Assembly: GCA_028688995.1 (NCBI GenBank)
Contig: JAQTXB010000004.1
Coordinates: 35,636-99,635, forward strand
Length of the DNA: 64,000 bases
Reading direction: 5' to 3'
Origin: Aliarcobacter sp.
GTDB lineage: Bacteria; Campylobacterota; Campylobacteria; Campylobacterales; Arcobacteraceae
Below are positions 31,653-37,616 of the stretch, piece by piece; positions within the stretch are counted from its first letter, which is position 1; every line of letters starts with the position of its first letter. The notes beneath the pieces were generated by a model. The model searched no databases. It saw nothing but the letters and a program-made list of their open reading frames with translations, and was not told where the DNA came from. Made by a program: the position numbers and the translations under genes.

Positions 31653-33518
31653 TTGAATAATATTAAAATTAAAAATTATCAAATCTTTTTGTTTTCTTTC
31701 TTATTTAGTGTAAATATTTTTGCTTTAGATAAGTTAGATTCTACTCCTTTTGTTTTAACTCAAAATGAGAAAAATTGGATAGAAACACATCCTATAATAA
31801 AAGTAGGTGTTGATAAAGATTATGCTCCTTATGAGTGGCTTGAAAATGAAGAGTATAAAGGTCTTGCTGTTGATTATATGAAACGAATTGAAAAAATTGT
31901 AGGAATAGAGTTTCAAATAGTTAAAAATAAATCTTGGAATGAAATCATAAATATGGCCAAAAATGGTGAAATTGATATGATTACAAGTATTGTGCAAACT
32001 CCTGAAAGATCAAAATATCTTAATTTTACAGAATTTTATAGAAAGTGTCCCGTAATTATTATTGACAGAGGGAATAATGGTTTTATTGGAGGATTAAAAT
32101 ATCTTAATAATAAAAAAGTTTCTATTGAAAAAGATTATTTTATGGAAGAGATTTTAAGAACTAATTATCCAAATATAAAATTACAAGTTGTTGATAGCAC
32201 AAAAAAAGCTTTAGAATTGGCAAATTCAGGGGAAGTTGATGCTTATGTTGGAGATTTAGGACTTGCAGATTATTTAATTAAAAAAAATAATTTATCAAAT
32301 TTACGTTTTTCAGGTCAAACTGAATATTTTAGTGACCAAGGTTTTGCTGTTACAAAAAATAATTCTGAACTTTTGAGTATTTTAAATAAAGCTGTAAAAT
32401 CTTTACCTGAAGATGAAACAGAAAATATGTTTAATTATTGGTTGAGTGTAGAGCGTGGGATAGATGTAAAAACTATAGTTTTTTACATTATAGGTATAAC
32501 ATTTATTTTACTAAGTATAATTTATTGGGTTTATAGATTAAGAAGTGAAATAAATCAACGTAAAATTATAGAAGATAAATTAAAACAGAGTGAATCCCTT
32601 TATCGACAATTAACAGAAGATGTAAATGATGTTATTTGGAAAGTAAATACAAATTTTATAGTTACTTATATTAGTCCTGCAGATGAACGATTTAGAGGAT
32701 TTAATGCAAGTGAAGTAATAGGAAAAAGTATTTTTGAATTGTTTACAGATGAAAGTATTATTCTTCTTAATGAAAAATTAAAAGAGAGATTTGAATTATT
32801 GCAAAAAGGTAATAAATTACCTCCTTTGAAAATAGAACTTCAACATAAATGTAAAGATGGAACAATAATTTGGGGTGAAATTTTATCAAAACAAGAGTTT
32901 GATGAAAATGGAAATATTATTGGTTATCATGGAATAACAAGGGAAATTACTGAACGTAAAAAACTACAAGAAAAAATAGAACAATTAGCTTATTGTGATA
33001 CCCTTACAAAACTGCCAAATCGTCGTTCTTTAGAAGATAAAATAAATTTTATAATGTCAAAAAGTGAGAGAAGTCAAAAGTATTGTGCTTTGGTTTTTAT
33101 TGATTTAGATAATTTTAAACCACTAAATGATACTTATGGACATAATGTTGGGGATATATTATTGATTGAAGTTGCAAATAGGTTAAAAAGCAGTATTAGA
33201 AAACTTGATGCGGTTGCTAGAATTGGTGGCGATGAGTTTGTAATTGTACTTGATGAATTTGATGAGGATATAAAAACATCAAAAGAAAATATTTTTAAAG
33301 TAGTTGAAAAAATAAGAATTTATATAGCCCAACCATATAAATTTAGTATAATAAATGAAGATAAAGAAAATATAGATATTGAGCATCATTGTACAGCTAG
33401 TATTGGAATTTGTATGTTCAAAGGAGAACAAGAGAGTTCTATAAATATCTTCAAATGTGCAGATTCAGCAATGTATGAATCAAAAGAATCAGGACGAAAT
33501 ACTATTAAGTTTTTCTAG
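31653..33518 (+). CDS. Diguanylate cyclase: periplasmic binding-protein sensor, TM, PAS, GGDEF
   Basis: VGVDKDYAPY PBP domain; TM; PAS/PAC (GYHGITREIT); DTLTKLPNRR, DLDNFKPLNDTYGHNVGD, ARIGGDEF. Confidence 0.93.
   Translation: MNNIKIKNYQIFLFSFLFSVNIFALDKLDSTPFVLTQNEKNWIETHPIIKVGVDKDYAPYEWLENEEYKGLAVDYMKRIEKIVGIEFQIVKNKSWNEIINMAKNGEIDMITSIVQTPERSKYLNFTEFYRKCPVIIIDRGNNGFIGGLKYLNNKKVSIEKDYFMEEILRTNYPNIKLQVVDSTKKALELANSGEVDAYVGDLGLADYLIKKNNLSNLRFSGQTEYFSDQGFAVTKNNSELLSILNKAVKSLPEDETENMFNYWLSVERGIDVKTIVFYIIGITFILLSIIYWVYRLRSEINQRKIIEDKLKQSESLYRQLTEDVNDVIWKVNTNFIVTYISPADERFRGFNASEVIGKSIFELFTDESIILLNEKLKERFELLQKGNKLPPLKIELQHKCKDGTIIWGEILSKQEFDENGNIIGYHGITREITERKKLQEKIEQLAYCDTLTKLPNRRSLEDKINFIMSKSERSQKYCALVFIDLDNFKPLNDTYGHNVGDILLIEVANRLKSSIRKLDAVARIGGDEFVIVLDEFDEDIKTSKENIFKVVEKIRIYIAQPYKFSIINEDKENIDIEHHCTASIGICMFKGEQESSINIFKCADSAMYESKESGRNTIKFF
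33291..33514 (+). repeat. 224-bp direct repeat, copy 1 (3' end of the diguanylate cyclase gene)
   Basis: Matches 35358-35581 with 5 substitutions. Confidence 0.95.
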
Positions 33519-33526
33519 GATGGGAT

Positions 33527-33640
33527 TTAGTTTCGTTCCCAAGCTCTAGCTTGGGAATGCATACTTTTAGCAAAACAATATTTTGATTTATCTCACTTTT
33601 TTTATCTGCATTCCCAACGAAGACGTTGGGAACGAAGAAA
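33527..33640. repeat. REP doublet (REPIN-like) copy 1
   Basis: TTCGTTCCCAAGCTCTAGCTTGGGAATGCA ... TGCATTCCCAACGAAGACGTTGGGAACGAA: two 9-bp hairpins in inverted orientation. Confidence 0.9.
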
Positions 33641-33685
33641 AGTTATCGTTATCCCCTGTGACGCTAATGTTTAATGTTGTATTAT

Positions 33686-33946
33686 TCATCTTAACAATAA
33701 ATAAATTATACCTACAATTGTTAATATTATTAAAAAAAATATTGTTCCAACTTTATTTCCTATAATATCTATACGATTTAAATACAAATTCTTTTTACTG
33801 ATTTCTTTTTGACTAAAATTTTTATCTTTATTTATTTCTTTAGAATTATATTTCTCATATAAAATAAAAAATATAATAGAAACTATTATCACTGACAAAA
33901 TTATTTCAAAATTATTTATTAATATTGTTAAACCATTTACTTGCAT
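33686..33946 (-). CDS. Small two-TM membrane protein (86 aa)
   Basis: SD AAGGA; two hydrophobic segments around a Lys-rich loop. Confidence 0.7.
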   Translation of the reverse strand: MQVNGLTILINNFEIILSVIIVSIIFFILYEKYNSKEINKDKNFSQKEISKKNLYLNRIDIIGNKVGTIFFLIILTIVGIIYLLLR

Positions 33947-34005
33947 TTTTATTCCTTATCTTTTTTTGTAGTATTTTCATATAAATCTATAACACCATTT
34001 ATTGT

Positions 34006-34118
34006 TTAGTTTCGTTCCCAAGCTCTAGCTTGGGAATGCATACTTTTAGCAAAATACTATTTCAATTTGTCTTACTTTTTTATCTGCATTCCCAACGAAG
34101 ACGTTGGGAACGAAGAAA
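34006..34118. repeat. REP doublet copy 2
   Basis: Both REP hairpins identical to copy 1; internal spacer diverged from copy 1. Confidence 0.9.
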
Positions 34119-34268
34119 TGAGCTATTTTTTATAATTTTCATTTTGGAATAATATGCATTTTAATAAACTCTTGAACTCTTACATCATTATTATCTAATT
34201 GTATTTCTTTTAGAAGGTAACTTTTAAAACAATTAAACTGCCTATTTTTTCACTTCGTTTAACATTTA

Positions 34269-34565
34269 TTACTTCCCTTCAATTTTATTGTTTTGGAAGA
34301 CTTCTTTTTCTTTGTCTGTTAATGGAATAAAAAGTTTCTGATCAAATTCCTGTTTAGGCATATTTTTTAGATTTGTTGCTTCTTCATATTTATCTACTAT
34401 CCAATAAAGTGTAAAAACAACAATAAATCCAAATAATAAATTCTTTATATCTTTTTTTATTATAGAGAATACATATGATTTACTTTTTGTTTTATTATAT
34501 GATTGTATCCAAGTGTATAAATAAAAACCAATAATTAAAGACCATATAATAATTAATTTAATCAT
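34269..34565 (-). CDS. Small two-TM membrane protein (98 aa; start MIKLII)
   Basis: ATG 1 nt after the upstream stop; two hydrophobic segments. Confidence 0.65.
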   Translation of the reverse strand: MIKLIIIWSLIIGFYLYTWIQSYNKTKSKSYVFSIIKKDIKNLLFGFIVVFTLYWIVDKYEEATNLKNMPKQEFDQKLFIPLTDKEKEVFQNNKIEGK

Positions 34566-34566
34566 T

Positions 34567-34920
34567 TTATTTTTCTTCTTCGATGAAAATAAAGTTTGCA
34601 TCTTCTGTTATACCATATGTTGCACCTTGAAATTTTATATGATTCCATTGATTTTGGATATGTGCATCAATTCTAGGTTGAAGTTTATCTATTTTTGATT
34701 GTGACTTTGCATCATACGCTTCTTTTTGTAACTTCTTCCACGCTTCATTTGAATATCTAAAAGAACCCTTTGTTTTATCTAAAGCTGTGTCAAGCATTGA
34801 AGGAGCTAACACGAATCCTGTAATTCCTGACATTATTACCTCTTTTTCATTTATATTAATATCATTCCAATTTATATTATTCATATAAAAAGTTTTTTGA
34901 TTCCACATTTGTTCTGCAAC
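34567..34920 (-). CDS. Small soluble ORF: either an 88-aa protein from ATG 34833 or the 3' part of a gene truncated at REP doublet 3
   Basis: Frame stays open back to the repeat edge; SD GAGGT before MSGITG. Confidence 0.55.
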   Translation of the reverse strand, partial: VAEQMWNQKTFYMNNINWNDININEKEVIMSGITGFVLAPSMLDTALDKTKGSFRYSNEAWKKLQKEAYDAKSQSKIDKLQPRIDAHIQNQWNHIKFQGATYGITEDANFIFIEEEK

Positions 34921-35033
34921 TTAGTTTCGTTCCCAAGCTCTAGCTTGGGAATGCATACTTTTAGCAAAATACTATTTCAATTTGTCTTACTTTTTTATCT
35001 GCATTCCCAATGAGGACGATGTGAACGAAGAAA
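34921..35033. repeat. REP doublet copy 3 (right-hand REP decayed)
   Basis: Identical to copy 2 except 4 substitutions in the right hairpin. Confidence 0.9.
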
Positions 35034-35057
35034 AGTTACCTATCCTCTTTAGATAAA

Positions 35058-35094
35058 ATTATATTAAAACTGTGTCACATACGGTGTCACAGTT
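35058..35094 (-). promoter_or_regulatory. Candidate promoter pointing into the repeat array, with a tandem GTGACAC box
   Basis: Minus strand AACTGTGACACCGTATGTGACACAGTTTTAA-TATAAT then AAAGAGGA. Confidence 0.4.
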
Positions 35095-35131
35095 CTTTAC
35101 TTTTCAGAATTTCATTTGATTATTGGGGTTA

Positions 35132-35170
35132 TTATCTGGATTCCCAACAAGGACGTTGGGAACGAGGAAA
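35132..35170. repeat. Solitary REP (right half of a decayed fourth doublet)
   Basis: TTATCTGGATTCCCAACAAGGACGTTGGGAACGAGGAAA, 8-bp stem intact. Confidence 0.8.
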
Positions 35171-35357
35171 TAATTAAATTTGATTTTTAAATCATTAGTT
35201 TATTTTAGAAGTATCTTAATTTTATTTGTTACCTATTGTAAACAACGAGAGCTCAAATAGAAAATATATAAATTTACTAAATTGAGACATTTCATAAGAT
35301 ATGAATTAAAAAAATATAGTATATAAAGTTATATTATCAATTTATTTTGAATCTTAC

Positions 35358-35588
35358 ATTTTTAAAGTAGTTGAAAAAATAAGAATTTATATAGCTCAAC
35401 CATATAAATTTAGCATAATAAATGAAGATAAAGAAAATATAGATATTGAGCATCATTGTACAGCAAGTATTGGAATTTGTATGTTCAAAGGAGAAGAAGA
35501 GAGTTCTATAAATATCTTCAAATGTGCAGATTCAGCAATGTATGAATCAAAAGAATCAGGAAGAAATACTATTAAGTTTTTTGAATAA
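35358..35588 (+). pseudogene. Start-less duplicate of the diguanylate cyclase 3' end (direct repeat copy 2)
   Basis: Reads IFKVVEK...GRNTIKFFE* versus ...KFF* in the intact gene. Confidence 0.9.
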
Positions 35589-35630
35589 GTAGAAAATAAT
35601 TTTGAAATATAAAATTAAATAGAAGTTATA

Positions 35631-35659
35631 AATGGGCAAGTTTTAAAAACTTGCCCATT
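35631..35659. terminator. Inverted repeat overlapping the MCP stop codon
   Basis: AATGGGCAAGTTTT-A-AAAACTTGCCCATT. Confidence 0.7.
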
Positions 35660-37616
35660 CATCGTCATCTTTATCATTTGATGAAACTACTTTTGTTTCA
35701 CTTTTTGTATTTGTAATTGGCTTTTTAGTTTGAGTTGGAGTTTTACTTATAGTTTTTGCTGGTGCTGATTTATTCTCTAAAACTTTTGCTGTAACTTCAT
35801 CTTTTCCTATAAACTCTTTTGCATTAGCATTTGAAACAACTAATCTTGCAATTGTATCTGTTTGAACAGCTACTTCATAAGTTTGTGAAGCTATTATTGC
35901 ATTTTGTTGAGTTTGTTGATCTAGTGCGCTAATAGCATCATTTATTTGCTCAATTCCTGCTAATTGTTCTTTACTTGAACCTTCTATACTTTTTATAAGG
36001 TCAATTGTTTGTGAGATATTTTCATTTAGCATTTTGTAACCACTAATCATATCTTCTGATATTCTTTTTCCTTGGTCAGCTTTTCTTGTAGCAGTTTCAA
36101 CTAAAACTTTAATCTCTTTTGCAGCTTCTGCTGAACGAGATGCAAGATTTCTTACTTCTGCTGCAACTACTGCAAATCCTTTTCCAGCTTCTCCAGCAGT
36201 TGCAGCTTCAACAGCTGCATTTAGTGAAAGAATATTTGTTTGGAAGGCAATTTGGTCAATTACGCTAATTGCTTCATTAATTGCGTTTACTTCTCTATCA
36301 ATTTCATTCATAGCATCAGTTGTTTGATTTGCTAAATTTTCACCTTTTGAAGCTGAATCAGTTACGCTAGAAGCCAATTGAGACATTTTAACAATGTTAT
36401 TTGTGTTATTTGAAATATTGCTTGAGATTTCTTCAACAGCAGCAGCTGTTTCTTCTAAAGCAGCAGCAGCTTCATTCGAATTTCTATTTAATGTATCAAC
36501 ATTTTTTAGAAGTATATGACTACTTTCACCTAATGTTAATCCATTTGATTTATTTTCTACTAGCATATCATTTATTATATCTGCAAGATTATTTAATCCC
36601 ACAGTTACACCACTATTACACCCTTTGATTCTATGTGTAAAATCAAGACTTGCATATCTTTCAAGGGCAAAACTAATGTCATTGATATTTGTACAAACTC
36701 TTAATTGAAGACTTAATAACATATCATTAATATGATGTCTTAAACTCTCTAAACTTTGAGATTCTGTTTTATTATCAAGTCTTTTACTTAAGAATCCTTC
36801 TTTAATTGTTAAAACAATTTGATTTATCTCTTCTAGGAATTTGTTATCTGAATCAATTGCACTTTTTGATTTAGAGATATTTTGATTTACAACATGAGCC
36901 ATAGTTCCAAATTCATCATGGTTCTTATCATCTAACATTTCAACTGTTGTAGATTCTTTGTTTATATATCCAAAGAAACTTAATAAGCCATTTTGGAAGT
37001 TATTAATTGATGTTATTAATTGTGATGATAAAGCAAGTGAGAAAGCAACAAAAAATAGTATTGCAATAATTGCTAGTGTGATTAAAACAACATTCATTGT
37101 ACTAATTGCATCATCTTTCATCTTAATAGCATTACCATTTATTTGATTTAATAGTTTTTCTAACTCTAATCCAATATCAGCCATCTCTTTAATAGTAGCT
37201 AATATTTCAGGAGACTCTTTATCTATTGCATTTTTATAATCTGTTATTCTTTTTTGTGAGAATTTATCAAAACTTTGTATGTAATTCTTTGAATTTTCTA
37301 CAATTTTATTAGATAAATCAATATTTTCTTGTGCGGTTAATTTATTTTTAAAGTTTAAAACTAGATTATCTAAAGTAGAAAAATCATCTCTAACTTTTTG
37401 AGCTTTTGCTTCATCAGGAGTTCGTAAGAATTGATAAACAGAAATTCGCCCTTTTAATACCTGTTGAATAAATATATCAGTTTGGTTAGCTGCATTGGTT
37501 AAACGTTTTGTAACACCATCATAATAACTAAATATTGAAGCTGATATTATTACAATTAAAATAAAAGCCAAAGGTAAAAGCATAAGCTTTATTCGTGTAG
37601 AGACGTTTTTTAACAA
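35643..37616 (-). CDS. Methyl-accepting chemotaxis protein with C-terminal EWASF pentapeptide
   Basis: Two TM helices, periplasmic sensor, [34 protein letters not shown]; TTG start with SD AAGGA. Confidence 0.95.

What the first reader, a model, noticed from the sequence alone, without database searches (positions are those of the whole stretch)
33588..34920. DNA between the REP doublets looks like captured cassettes: cut gene end, whole membrane gene, cut gene start
Both inter-repeat segments (365 bp and 802 bp) read on the minus strand with the same layout. Each opens with a frame running from the TAA at the repeat edge (TINGVIDLYENTTKKDKE*; VAEQMWNQ...IEEEK*, 117 codons). Next, 1-2 nt later, comes an intact two-TM gene (86 aa; 98 aa). 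Each closes with an ATGA-coupled gene start that runs into the next repeat (MNNTTLNISVTGDND; MKIIKNSS). Segment 2 also holds a start-less 36-codon frame (34139-34249). Soluble C-terminal fragment plus small membrane protein recalls orphan toxin-CT/immunity pairs of polymorphic toxin systems. Inference: a REP-bounded cassette array that collects immunity-like genes, an integron analogue using HUH chemistry. Alternative: erosion of a larger island by recombination between repeats. Caveat: removing doublet 2 joins MKIIKNSS in frame to TINGV..., giving a 26-aa ORF, so simple insertion is not excluded.
Basis: partly seen in the sequence, partly recalled or inferred. Interest (0 to 1): 0.75.

Follow-up and report, generated by a model that had tools for sequence, protein, structure and literature searches.

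The report
REPIN-punctuated orphan toxin-immunity islet
A strain-variable 2-kb insert after a signalling gene holds two leftover immunity genes of bacterial contact-dependent toxin systems, each with a stub of the gene that once preceded it, and small mobile hairpin repeats (REPINs) sit at every junction; the layout fits wear and reshuffling at these repeats better than an organised gene-capture system.

Summary
Three 113-nt doublets are REPINs. Their two hairpin types flank a REP-associated tyrosine transposase (RAYT) gene in a related Aliarcobacter genome.

- **Segment 2.** It holds the 3' part of a CdiA/filamentous-haemagglutinin-type toxin C-terminal domain and an intact 98-aa two-TM partner. 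The identical 98-aa protein sits in REP-free CDI-type orphan arrays.
- **Segment 1.** It holds the last 18 codons of a 294-aa secreted-protein gene and an intact 86-aa two-TM partner. Relatives of this pair lie in CdiI_N/Imm70 immunity arrays.
- **Breaks.** Both upstream genes break exactly at a REPIN edge, while REP-free relatives run on.
- **The "cut gene starts".** These frames (8 and 15 codons before the repeat) have no homologues and are not beyond chance.
- **The whole array.** It is a 2,067-nt indel bracketed by a 224-nt duplication of the GGDEF gene's 3' end. One metagenome strain has the empty site, and other strains carry the segments with different neighbours and different truncation points.

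Best reading (0.58): REPINs invaded an orphan toxin/immunity islet, and deletions or rearrangements at REPINs trimmed the upstream genes while the immunity genes survived. An integron-like, REPIN-bounded capture system is not excluded (about 0.2), but nothing shows a segment moving as a unit.

The parts
31653..33518 (+). Periplasmic-binding/PAS/GGDEF diguanylate cyclase gene. The islet begins 4 nt before its stop codon.
   Evidence: Pfam GGDEF 9.9e-43, SBP_bac_3, PAS
33291..33514 (.). Copy 1 of the 224-nt direct repeat (the 3' end of the GGDEF gene).
   Evidence: D1 family, 98% identity, spacing 2067; 5 mismatches
33527..33639 (.). REPIN 1: A-type REP 33532-33561 (+) and B-type REP 33607-33636 (-). 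The A hairpin is terminator-like and lies 13 nt after the GGDEF stop.
33640..34005 (-). Segment 1. Its core, 33640-33962, is 100% identical in strains X4, X5 and X8 but has other neighbours there.
33686..33946 (-). ORF-C: an intact 86-aa protein with two hydrophobic stretches, immunity-type. About 60% identical homologues lie in arrays with CdiI_N and Imm70 genes.
33948..34004 (-). Last 18 codons plus stop of a 294-aa signal-peptide protein gene, cut at the REPIN 2 edge.
   Evidence: blastn homology to L127/L133/L134 spans window 34007..33681; C-termini compared
34006..34118 (.). REPIN 2: A REP 34011-34040 (+) and B REP 34085-34114 (-).
   Evidence: two-hairpin ssDNA fold, z -4.85
34119..34920 (-). 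Segment 2. Positions 34156-34701 are 96-97% identical to REP-free CDI-type orphan arrays (L124-L126). Positions 34288-34922 are 89% identical to L001.
34269..34565 (-). ORF-B: an intact 98-aa immunity-type protein with two hydrophobic stretches. The identical protein occurs in Aliarcobacter orphan arrays downstream of Fil_haemagg_2 genes.
34567..34920 (-). ORF-A: the 3' fragment (117 codons) of a CdiA/FHA-type toxin C-terminal domain, cut at VAEQ by REPIN 3.
   Evidence: REP-free continuation in X6 and X10
34921..35033 (.). REPIN 3: A REP 34926-34955 (+) and a degenerate B REP 35000-35029 (-, 2 mismatches).
35034..35357 (.). Right part of the islet: AT-rich, no convincing ORF. It holds a solo B-like REP at 35137-35166 (-) and a 76-nt stretch (35049-35124) that recurs beside REPs elsewhere.
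35358..35581 (.). Copy 2 of the 224-nt repeat: an orphaned native 3' end of the GGDEF gene (ends KFFE*), contiguous with the MCP gene region.
   Evidence: the X3 empty-site contig runs from the GGDEF gene straight into 35563-36141
35643..37616 (-). Methyl-accepting chemotaxis protein gene: the right-hand housekeeping flank.
   Evidence: Pfam MCPsignal 5e-38

Best explanation
The locus is a strain-variable 2,067-nt islet inserted at the 3' end of a GGDEF gene in an Aliarcobacter-like genome. It is made of leftovers of polymorphic-toxin immunity arrays. Segment 2 is an orphan CDI-type pair: the stub of a CdiA/FHA-type toxin C-terminal domain followed by an intact small two-TM immunity-type gene. 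Segment 1 is the stub of a signal-peptide protein gene of unknown function followed by an intact small two-TM gene whose relatives lie in CdiI_N/Imm70 arrays.

Shown:
- The 113-nt doublets are REPINs, non-autonomous partners of a RAYT (HUH/Y1) transposase.
- A REPIN sits at every junction between unrelated sequence blocks.

Inferred mechanism:
- REPINs inserted into the islet.
- Recombination between REPIN copies, or deletions next to them, then removed the upstream gene bodies and joined blocks that were not originally adjacent.
- The immunity-type genes stayed intact because they still protect against neighbours' toxins.
- The regular pattern "cut end / whole small gene" therefore comes from two things: the native [toxin-CT][immunity] periodicity of orphan arrays, and trimming at REPINs. 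It does not come from directed capture.
- The 224-nt duplication shows that the whole unit entered, or can leave, by recombination at the gene's 3' end.
For: REPIN identity:
- The REP is a 9-bp stem with a tetraloop. The A and B types differ by a compensatory GC-to-CG swap.
- 119 of 137 genome hits keep both variable stem pairs Watson-Crick, with at least 7 pair types.
- The ssDNA fold has z -4.85.
- In Aliarcobacter locus L071, an A REP and a B REP in inverted orientation flank a 177-aa gene. That gene scores 105 bits on NCBIfam REP_Tyr_transpos (cut-off 80) and passes Pfam Y1_Tnp.
- REP bins are about 10 times deeper than unique bins, and REPs have many different flanks in metagenomes.

Toxin/immunity identity:
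- The ORF-A profile hits the C-termini of longer proteins, including a 702-aa Fil_haemagg_2 protein and a DUF637 protein.
- The exact ORF-B protein lies in orphan arrays behind Fil_haemagg_2 genes.
- The ORF-A/ORF-B pairing recurs in L001-L004.
- ORF-C homologues sit in arrays with CdiI_N and Imm70 genes.

Breakpoints at REPINs:
- Homology to REP-free relatives stops at 34922 and at 34007.
- X6 and X10 contigs read through 34922 into ...VN[IV]LD.T.TQ|VAEQ.

Erosion and variation:
- In X4/X5 the REPIN abuts segment 1 at 33962, not 34005, and the left neighbour of 33640 is unrelated DNA.
- X8 shows a third arrangement.
- L125 keeps only 48 codons of ORF-A with no REP nearby.
- X3 has an empty site, in a 15.6-kb contig.
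Against: - No contig shows a larger ancestral array holding both segments in this order. REP-free relatives carry the two pairs in different arrays.
- Segment 1 is 100% identical between the window and X4/X5, while segment 2 differs by about 2.5% (22 of 866) in the same runs. This points to recent independent exchange of one block, which a cassette model also predicts.
- All three REPINs are novel joints and none is a simple insertion, which is more than passive invasion predicts.
- Logan contigs are short and come from metagenomes, so linking blocks to one strain rests on similar depth only.
- The immunity function of ORF-B and ORF-C is inferred from position and homology. It has not been tested.
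Confidence: 0.58

Rival explanations
1. REPIN-bounded cassette system. Each [REPIN + segment] is a unit that is excised and inserted at other REPINs, building an array that collects immunity genes as an integron analogue. The chemistry would be either RAYT acting on the outer hairpins of two REPINs, or RecA recombination between 113-nt REPIN copies after natural transformation.
For: - All three REPINs lie at joints between blocks of different origin.
- The two blocks come from different kinds of array.
- The segment 1 core is 100% identical across strains, with different neighbours and three configurations, while neighbouring DNA differs by 2-2.5%.
- Segment 2 keeps both REPIN edges in X4/X5.
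- Tandem REPIN-REPIN joints exist in X2, X3, X6 and X10.
- 3.5 REPINs cluster in 1.6 kb, with none in the other 62 kb of the window.
Against: - No segment was seen at a second REPIN site with the same two boundaries.
- The boundary of segment 1 is imprecise (33962 vs 34005). In X4/X5 its other side is not a REPIN.
- In X6 and X10, segment 2 continues into the toxin gene with no REPIN.
- Six other REPIN doublets from metagenomes are singletons without arrays.
- No RAYT lies in the window.
- REP-free orphan arrays already show the same cut-end-plus-immunity layout.
Confidence: 0.2
2. REPINs are incidental. The islet is the remnant of an integrative element, or a transformed DNA piece joined by homology-facilitated illegitimate recombination, that carried a copy of the GGDEF 3' end. 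The truncated genes were already truncated in the donor orphan array, and REPINs merely inserted into intergenic gaps later.
For: - A 224-nt direct duplication of the target gene's 3' end brackets the insert, and the native-type end (KFFE*) is displaced to the right.
- An empty site exists.
- The right junction 35357|35358 is shared by X4, X5 and X6.
- Orphan arrays contain truncated toxin ends without REPs.
Against: - Homology to REP-free relatives ends within 1-2 nt of the REPIN edge at two junctions, and X6/X10 read straight through one of them. The cuts therefore coincide with REPINs rather than pre-dating them.
- No integrase or recombinase gene lies within 8 kb.
- The SNP pattern of the two 224-nt copies against the X3 allele does not fit a single Campbell crossover.
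Confidence: 0.15

Closest known systems
REPINs and their RAYT (REP-associated tyrosine transposase). Sources: Bertels, Gallie & Rainey 2017 (PMC5581495); Di Nocera et al. 2013 (PMC3733652); Bertels & Rainey 2011 and Ton-Hoang et al. 2012 from my own knowledge.
   Same: - Short hairpin REPs are paired in inverted orientation as doublets.
- A Y1/HUH transposase gene is flanked by the same two REPs in a relative.
- The repeats are multi-copy and dispersed.
- The doublets are heterodimers of two stem variants, as PMC3733652 describes for several REP families.
   Different: - There is no GTAG tag. The unpaired 5' side reads TTCGT.
- The REP core is conserved almost letter for letter across many phyla, whereas classical REPs are lineage-specific.
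- Here the REPINs are spaced by 366- and 802-nt gene-bearing segments and mark rearrangement joints, rather than sitting alone in intergenic DNA.
Orphan cdiA-CT/cdiI modules of contact-dependent inhibition loci (Poole et al. 2011, PLoS Genet, from my own knowledge).
   Same: - A promoterless 3' fragment of a CdiA/FHA-type toxin is followed at once by an intact small immunity gene.
- Such pairs are arrayed head to tail and are mosaic between strains.
   Different: - The pairs lie between housekeeping genes, with no cdiB/cdiA-like gene in 64 kb.
- The toxin stubs end at REPINs, not at the usual homology blocks.
- The upstream partner in segment 1 is a signal-peptide protein of unknown function, not a recognisable CdiA-CT.
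Integron cassette arrays and CALINs
   Same: An array of small, mostly promoterless genes in one orientation, separated by structured imperfect palindromes of about 110 nt.
   Different: - No integron integrase is nearby.
- The repeat ends lack the RYYYAAC/GTTRRRY core sites.
- Each half of the repeat is itself a hairpin.
- The associated enzyme in relatives is an HUH transposase, not a tyrosine recombinase.
- The boundaries are imprecise between strains.
REP- or repeat-mediated rearrangement: REP sequences at duplication join-points in Salmonella (Shyamala et al. 1990), and neisserial minimal mobile elements and maf islands flanked by dRS3/Correia repeats. All from my own knowledge.
   Same: Dispersed short repeats serve as portable homology at which blocks are deleted, duplicated or exchanged, in naturally transformable bacteria.
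   Different: This has not been shown here experimentally. The repeats belong to a different family, and the cargo is toxin-immunity modules.

Membership tests
REPIN/RAYT system | The REP unit is a short imperfect palindrome that folds as a hairpin. | tested here: met
   9-bp stem and 4-nt loop; compensatory A/B stem variants; 119 of 137 genome copies keep both variable pairs; DNA fold z -4.85
REPIN/RAYT system | Two REPs in inverted orientation a short distance apart (a doublet). | tested here: met
   Three doublets with 44-45 nt between the units
REPIN/RAYT system | A cognate RAYT gene flanked by the same REPs. | tested here: met
   Met in a related Aliarcobacter genome: L071 5282-5815 is flanked by an A and a B REP, and scores 105 bits on NCBIfam REP_Tyr_transpos. 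No RAYT lies in this 64-kb window. The rest of this genome was not available.
REPIN/RAYT system | Many dispersed copies in the genome. | tested here: inconclusive
   REP bins are about 10 times deeper than unique bins, and REPs have many different flanks in metagenome runs. All 7 units of the window lie in this one locus, and the whole genome was not seen.
REPIN/RAYT system | A conserved GTAG (or CGTC) tag at one end (PMC3733652). | tested here: not met
   The unpaired 5' side reads TTCGT and the 3' side ATGCA. Neither GTAG nor CGTC is present.
Orphan cdiA-CT/cdiI module | The fragment is homologous to the C-terminal domain of FHA/CdiA-type exoproteins. | tested here: met
   The profile hits C-termini of longer proteins; P0013 has Fil_haemagg_2 and P0012 has DUF637. 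The related CT also ends the 480-aa and 369-aa FHA-linked proteins in L125 and L124.
Orphan cdiA-CT/cdiI module | A small immunity gene lies immediately downstream and is co-inherited with the CT. | tested here: met
   ORF-B homologues follow ORF-A homologues in L001-L004 and L124-L126. The immunity function itself was not tested.
Orphan cdiA-CT/cdiI module | Located downstream of a cdiBAI locus. | tested here: not met
   tblastn with the FHA proteins of L124/L125 finds nothing in the window. The flanks are housekeeping genes.
Integron / CALIN | attC sites with R''/R' core sites RYYYAAC...GTTRRRY. | tested here: not met
   Direct reading of the doublet ends: AGTTTCGTTCCC...GGGAACGAAGAAA.
Integron / CALIN | An IntI tyrosine recombinase and attI beside the array. 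This is required for an integron but not for a CALIN. | tested here: not met
   No recombinase among the genes within about 8 kb on either side.
Integron / CALIN | The same cassette occurs with identical boundaries in different arrays. | tested here: not met
   The boundary of segment 1 differs by 43 nt between strains, and one side is not a repeat in X4/X5. Segment 2 runs on without a repeat in X6/X10.

The most novel reading that the evidence does not exclude
REPINs, with or without their RAYT, act as portable recombination sites that let single toxin-immunity modules be cut out of CDI-type orphan arrays and stacked at other chromosomal REPIN sites. That would be a cassette-collecting system built on HUH/REP elements rather than on an integron integrase.
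Probability: 0.15. Interest if true: 0.8.

Novelty: new variant of a known kind. Interest (0 to 1): 0.5.

Why it matters
REPINs are usually treated as inert or regulatory intergenic passengers. Here every REPIN of a locus marks a joint between unrelated blocks, and the joints differ between co-occurring strains. If REPINs drive this, they shape the turnover of immunity genes against contact-dependent toxins, and so who can coexist with whom in wastewater and groundwater Aliarcobacter populations.

Separately, the REP core and its RAYT recur almost unchanged across many phyla. That is unusual for REP elements and makes REP-RAYT recognition testable across distant hosts.

Tried and rejected
- **Rfam** (E up to 10) over 33300-35700: only chance-level hits, so no known RNA family.
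- **Literature search for the exact REP sequence:** no paper holds it.
- **Integron attC reading:** rejected, because the ends lack the core sites and no integrase is nearby.
- **Xer/dif-like 11-8-11 site reading:** considered, because the arms are constant and the centre varies. Dropped, because the centre co-varies to keep a hairpin and RAYT genes are flanked by the units.
- **CRISPR-like array:** rejected, because the units alternate in orientation.
- **Exact-protein look-ups:** the MCP and ORF-C proteins are not on record.
- **Metagenome scan for REPIN doublets:** 6 singleton doublets in other organisms, no arrays.
- **Left neighbour of segment 1 in X4/X5:** its 30 nt were not found in the window or in any fetched locus.
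- **The "gene start" MNNTTLNISVTGDND as an FHA-repeat fragment:** no significant match.
- **Promoter scan:** no enrichment, 16 found against 17.6 expected.
- **SNP phasing of the two 224-nt copies against the empty-site allele:** does not fit a single crossover in either direction, and there are too few sites to say more.
Full report
**1. What is in the sequence**

The region lies between a periplasmic-binding/PAS/GGDEF diguanylate cyclase gene (31653-33518, +) and a convergent methyl-accepting chemotaxis gene (35643-37616, -). The repeat finder gives three copies of a 113-nt unit at 33527-33639, 34006-34118 and 34921-35033. Each unit is an inverted pair of 30-nt elements:
- A type: TTCGTTCCCAAGCTCTAGCTTGGGAATGCA.
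- B type: TTCGTTCCCAACGTCTTCGTTGGGAATGCA.

A seventh, solo element lies at 35137-35166. All seven elements of the 64-kb window are in this locus, against 0.01 expected by chance. The stem next to the loop differs between A and B by a compensatory GC-to-CG swap. As single-stranded DNA the doublet folds into two 9-bp hairpins (z -4.85).

The inter-repeat segments measure 366 and 802 nt.

**2. The repeats are REPINs of a RAYT family**

My own estimate of the chance expectation, from collection size, is about 17. The hits come from many phyla: Methylococcales, Thiomargarita/Beggiatoa, Verrucomicrobiota, Planctomycetota, Cloacimonadota, Campylobacterota and others.

In 119 of 137 copies the two free stem positions stay Watson-Crick, with at least seven pair types and a TCCN loop. 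So this is a conserved hairpin, not a chance word.

Clustering all ORFs of these loci gave one family that sits directly beside the motif in six loci. This is a 166-190-aa protein family; one of the six, L038, is a 131-aa copy with an internal deletion. It carries an HUH-type motif (NHLHMI) and a YIHNNPVKRGY motif. It scores 105-107 bits on NCBIfam REP_Tyr_transpos (cut-off 80) and passes Pfam Y1_Tnp.

In an uncultured Aliarcobacter genome (L071) the gene is flanked by an A-type REP on one side and a B-type REP, inverted, on the other. The inner flanks resemble those of the window's doublets. The doublet is therefore the RAYT unit without the gene, that is, a REPIN.

Other points:
- No RAYT lies in the window.
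- In metagenome runs the REP bins are roughly ten times deeper than the unique bins, and REPs have many different flanks. This indicates a dispersed multi-copy family.
- The family lacks the GTAG or CGTC tag used to classify REPs in PMC3733652.
- No Rfam family and no paper matches it.

**3. The segments are leftovers of polymorphic-toxin immunity arrays**

*Segment 2*
- The 117-codon frame (ORF-A) has six close homologues, several of them longer at the N-terminus (...STVNILDQTATK|VAEQMWNQ).
- A profile search of 1.84 billion representatives places the domain at the C-terminus of longer proteins. Of the longer hits scanned against Pfam, one (P0013, 702 aa) has Fil_haemagg_2 repeats and one (P0012, 496 aa) has DUF637.
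- The exact 98-aa ORF-B protein is encoded in a 1.78-Mb Aliarcobacter contig (L124) and in two Logan contigs (L125, L126). In L124 it lies inside a head-to-tail array of Fil_haemagg_2 fragments, C-terminal domains and small membrane proteins; L125 and L126 carry the same kind of array without a Pfam Fil_haemagg_2 hit. This is a CDI-type orphan array, and it is free of REPs around the module.
- Window 34156-34701 is 96-97% identical to these arrays.
- The ORF-A/ORF-B pairing recurs in four further metagenome contigs.

*Segment 1*
- ORF-C has homologues at about 60% identity, one of them annotated from Aliarcobacter butzleri.
- These lie in arrays containing CdiI_N and Imm70 genes.
- In those arrays ORF-C follows a 294-aa signal-peptide protein ending ...TVDNTIELYEDIKKYKE*. 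That matches the window's 18-codon tail TINGVIDLYENTTKKDKE*.

*Other findings*
- Both small proteins show two hydrophobic stretches.
- The two "cut gene starts" have no detectable relatives. In X4/X5 the first one stops after 17 codons. I do not count them as genes.
- No FHA/CdiA-like gene, integrase or recombinase lies in the window near the locus.

**4. REPINs mark the breakpoints, and strains differ**

Homology to REP-free relatives ends within 1-2 nt of a REPIN edge at two junctions: at 34922 for ORF-A and at 34007 for the 294-aa gene tail.

Contigs of runs X6 and X10 are nearly identical to segment 2 (1 mismatch in 183 nt for X6). They run through 34922 into 30 further bases encoding VN[IV]LD[Q/*]T[T/A]TQ, the expected continuation of the toxin frame. 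The DNA to the right of REPIN 3 in the window is unrelated to this, so REPIN 3 is not a simple insertion.

The core of segment 1 (33640-33962) occurs at 100% identity in three configurations:

| Runs | Left of 33640 | Right boundary |
|---|---|---|
| Window, X1 | REPIN | REPIN at 34005 |
| X8 (an RNA-seq metagenome) | REPIN | REPIN at 33962 |
| X4, X5 | unrelated DNA | REPIN at 33962 |

In X4/X5, segment 2 with both REPIN edges is present but differs at 22 of 866 positions. The right part of the islet differs at 13 positions plus indels.

**5. The whole array is an indel**

The 224 nt at 33291-33514 (the GGDEF 3' end) recur at 35358-35581 with five mismatches. A 15.6-kb contig in run X3 joins 32802-33495 directly to 35563-36141. 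This is an empty site lacking exactly 2,067 nt.
- The empty-site allele ends like copy 2 (KFFE*). In the window the gene ends KFF*, followed 13 nt later by REPIN 1. Its A hairpin scores as terminator-like.
- The right junction 35357|35358 is shared by X4, X5 and X6.
- The SNP pattern does not fit a single crossover in either direction, so I leave the mode of entry open. Candidates are Campbell-type integration, homology-facilitated illegitimate recombination, or the remnant of a larger integrative element.

**6. Interpretation**

The layout "cut end, whole small membrane gene" is native to orphan toxin/immunity arrays. L125 keeps only the last 48 codons of ORF-A before ORF-B, with no REP nearby. 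What the REPINs add is that each one sits at a joint between blocks that are not adjacent in any REP-free relative, and that the amount of flanking gene left beside a REPIN varies between strains.

This is what is expected if REPINs inserted into an islet of orphan modules and then served as sites of deletion and rearrangement, while selection kept the immunity genes.

The cassette reading is not excluded. One block is identical across strains whose neighbouring blocks have diverged, all REPINs are novel joints, and REPINs cluster here. But no segment was seen at a second REPIN site with the same boundaries, the boundaries are imprecise, and the other REPIN doublets found are singletons.

I put erosion or rearrangement at REPINs at 0.58, REPIN-bounded cassette mobility at 0.2, and "REPINs incidental" at 0.15.

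**7. Limits**

- The strain comparison rests on short Logan contigs from metagenomes. Linking blocks to one genome is inferred from similar depth.
- The window's full genome, and so its RAYT and its REPIN census, was not available.
- The immunity function is inferred from homology and gene order.

Noticed in passing
window 33291-33514 and 35358-35581: A 224-nt direct repeat (5 mismatches) of the GGDEF gene's 3' end brackets the whole REPIN array. A related strain (run X3, 15.6-kb contig) has the empty site lacking exactly 2,067 nt.
   Followed up: partly
L005-L123 (genome-contig hits); RAYT genes in L038, L053, L071, L090, L103, L108: The REP core TCGTTCCCAA-N8-TTGGGAAT recurs almost unchanged in genomes of many phyla, with compensatory stem changes, and directly flanks RAYT genes in six loci. 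This is a cross-phylum REP/RAYT family without the GTAG or CGTC tag.
   Followed up: partly
window 35049-35124: This 76-nt stretch is itself repeated. Contigs in X1, X3, X6 and X8 join a REP B-end plus GGGAGAA to position 35049 and then diverge after 35124. It contains GTGTCACA...GTGTCACAG.
   Followed up: no
L038 2821-3216 (Aliarcobacter OY781917.1): This RAYT homologue has an internal deletion that removes the HUH motif, yet it is still flanked by the two REPs. It is probably an inactivated copy.
   Followed up: no
L031, L037, L043, L058, L073, L081 (Thiomargarita MAG): REP copies share a conserved upstream flank, ...AACTGATGTTACGCA..., which suggests a longer composite repeat in that genome.
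   Followed up: no
window 35390-35479 (run X6): The X6 strain has a 90-nt deletion inside the orphaned GGDEF 3' fragment (copy 2), consistent with that fragment being non-functional.
   Followed up: no
window 33534-33559, 34013-34038, 34928-34953: On the + strand the A-type REPs score as intrinsic-terminator-like (3 REP sites among 4 found, against 0.4 expected). The first lies 13 nt after the GGDEF stop and may terminate that gene.
   Followed up: no
L071 5100-5220 and L038 near 3265: In both Aliarcobacter genomes the RAYT/REP unit lies just downstream of a gene ending in what I read by eye as an EAL-type C-terminus (GYYFAKP...; not domain-scanned). In the window, REPIN 1 follows a GGDEF gene. 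This may be coincidence.
   Followed up: no
L001 1687-3032: The REP-free relative array also carries a 298-aa Phospholipase-like (PF26363) fragment, a 149-aa lipoprotein pair and a RhuM gene. This shows the diversity of modules in these arrays.
   Followed up: no
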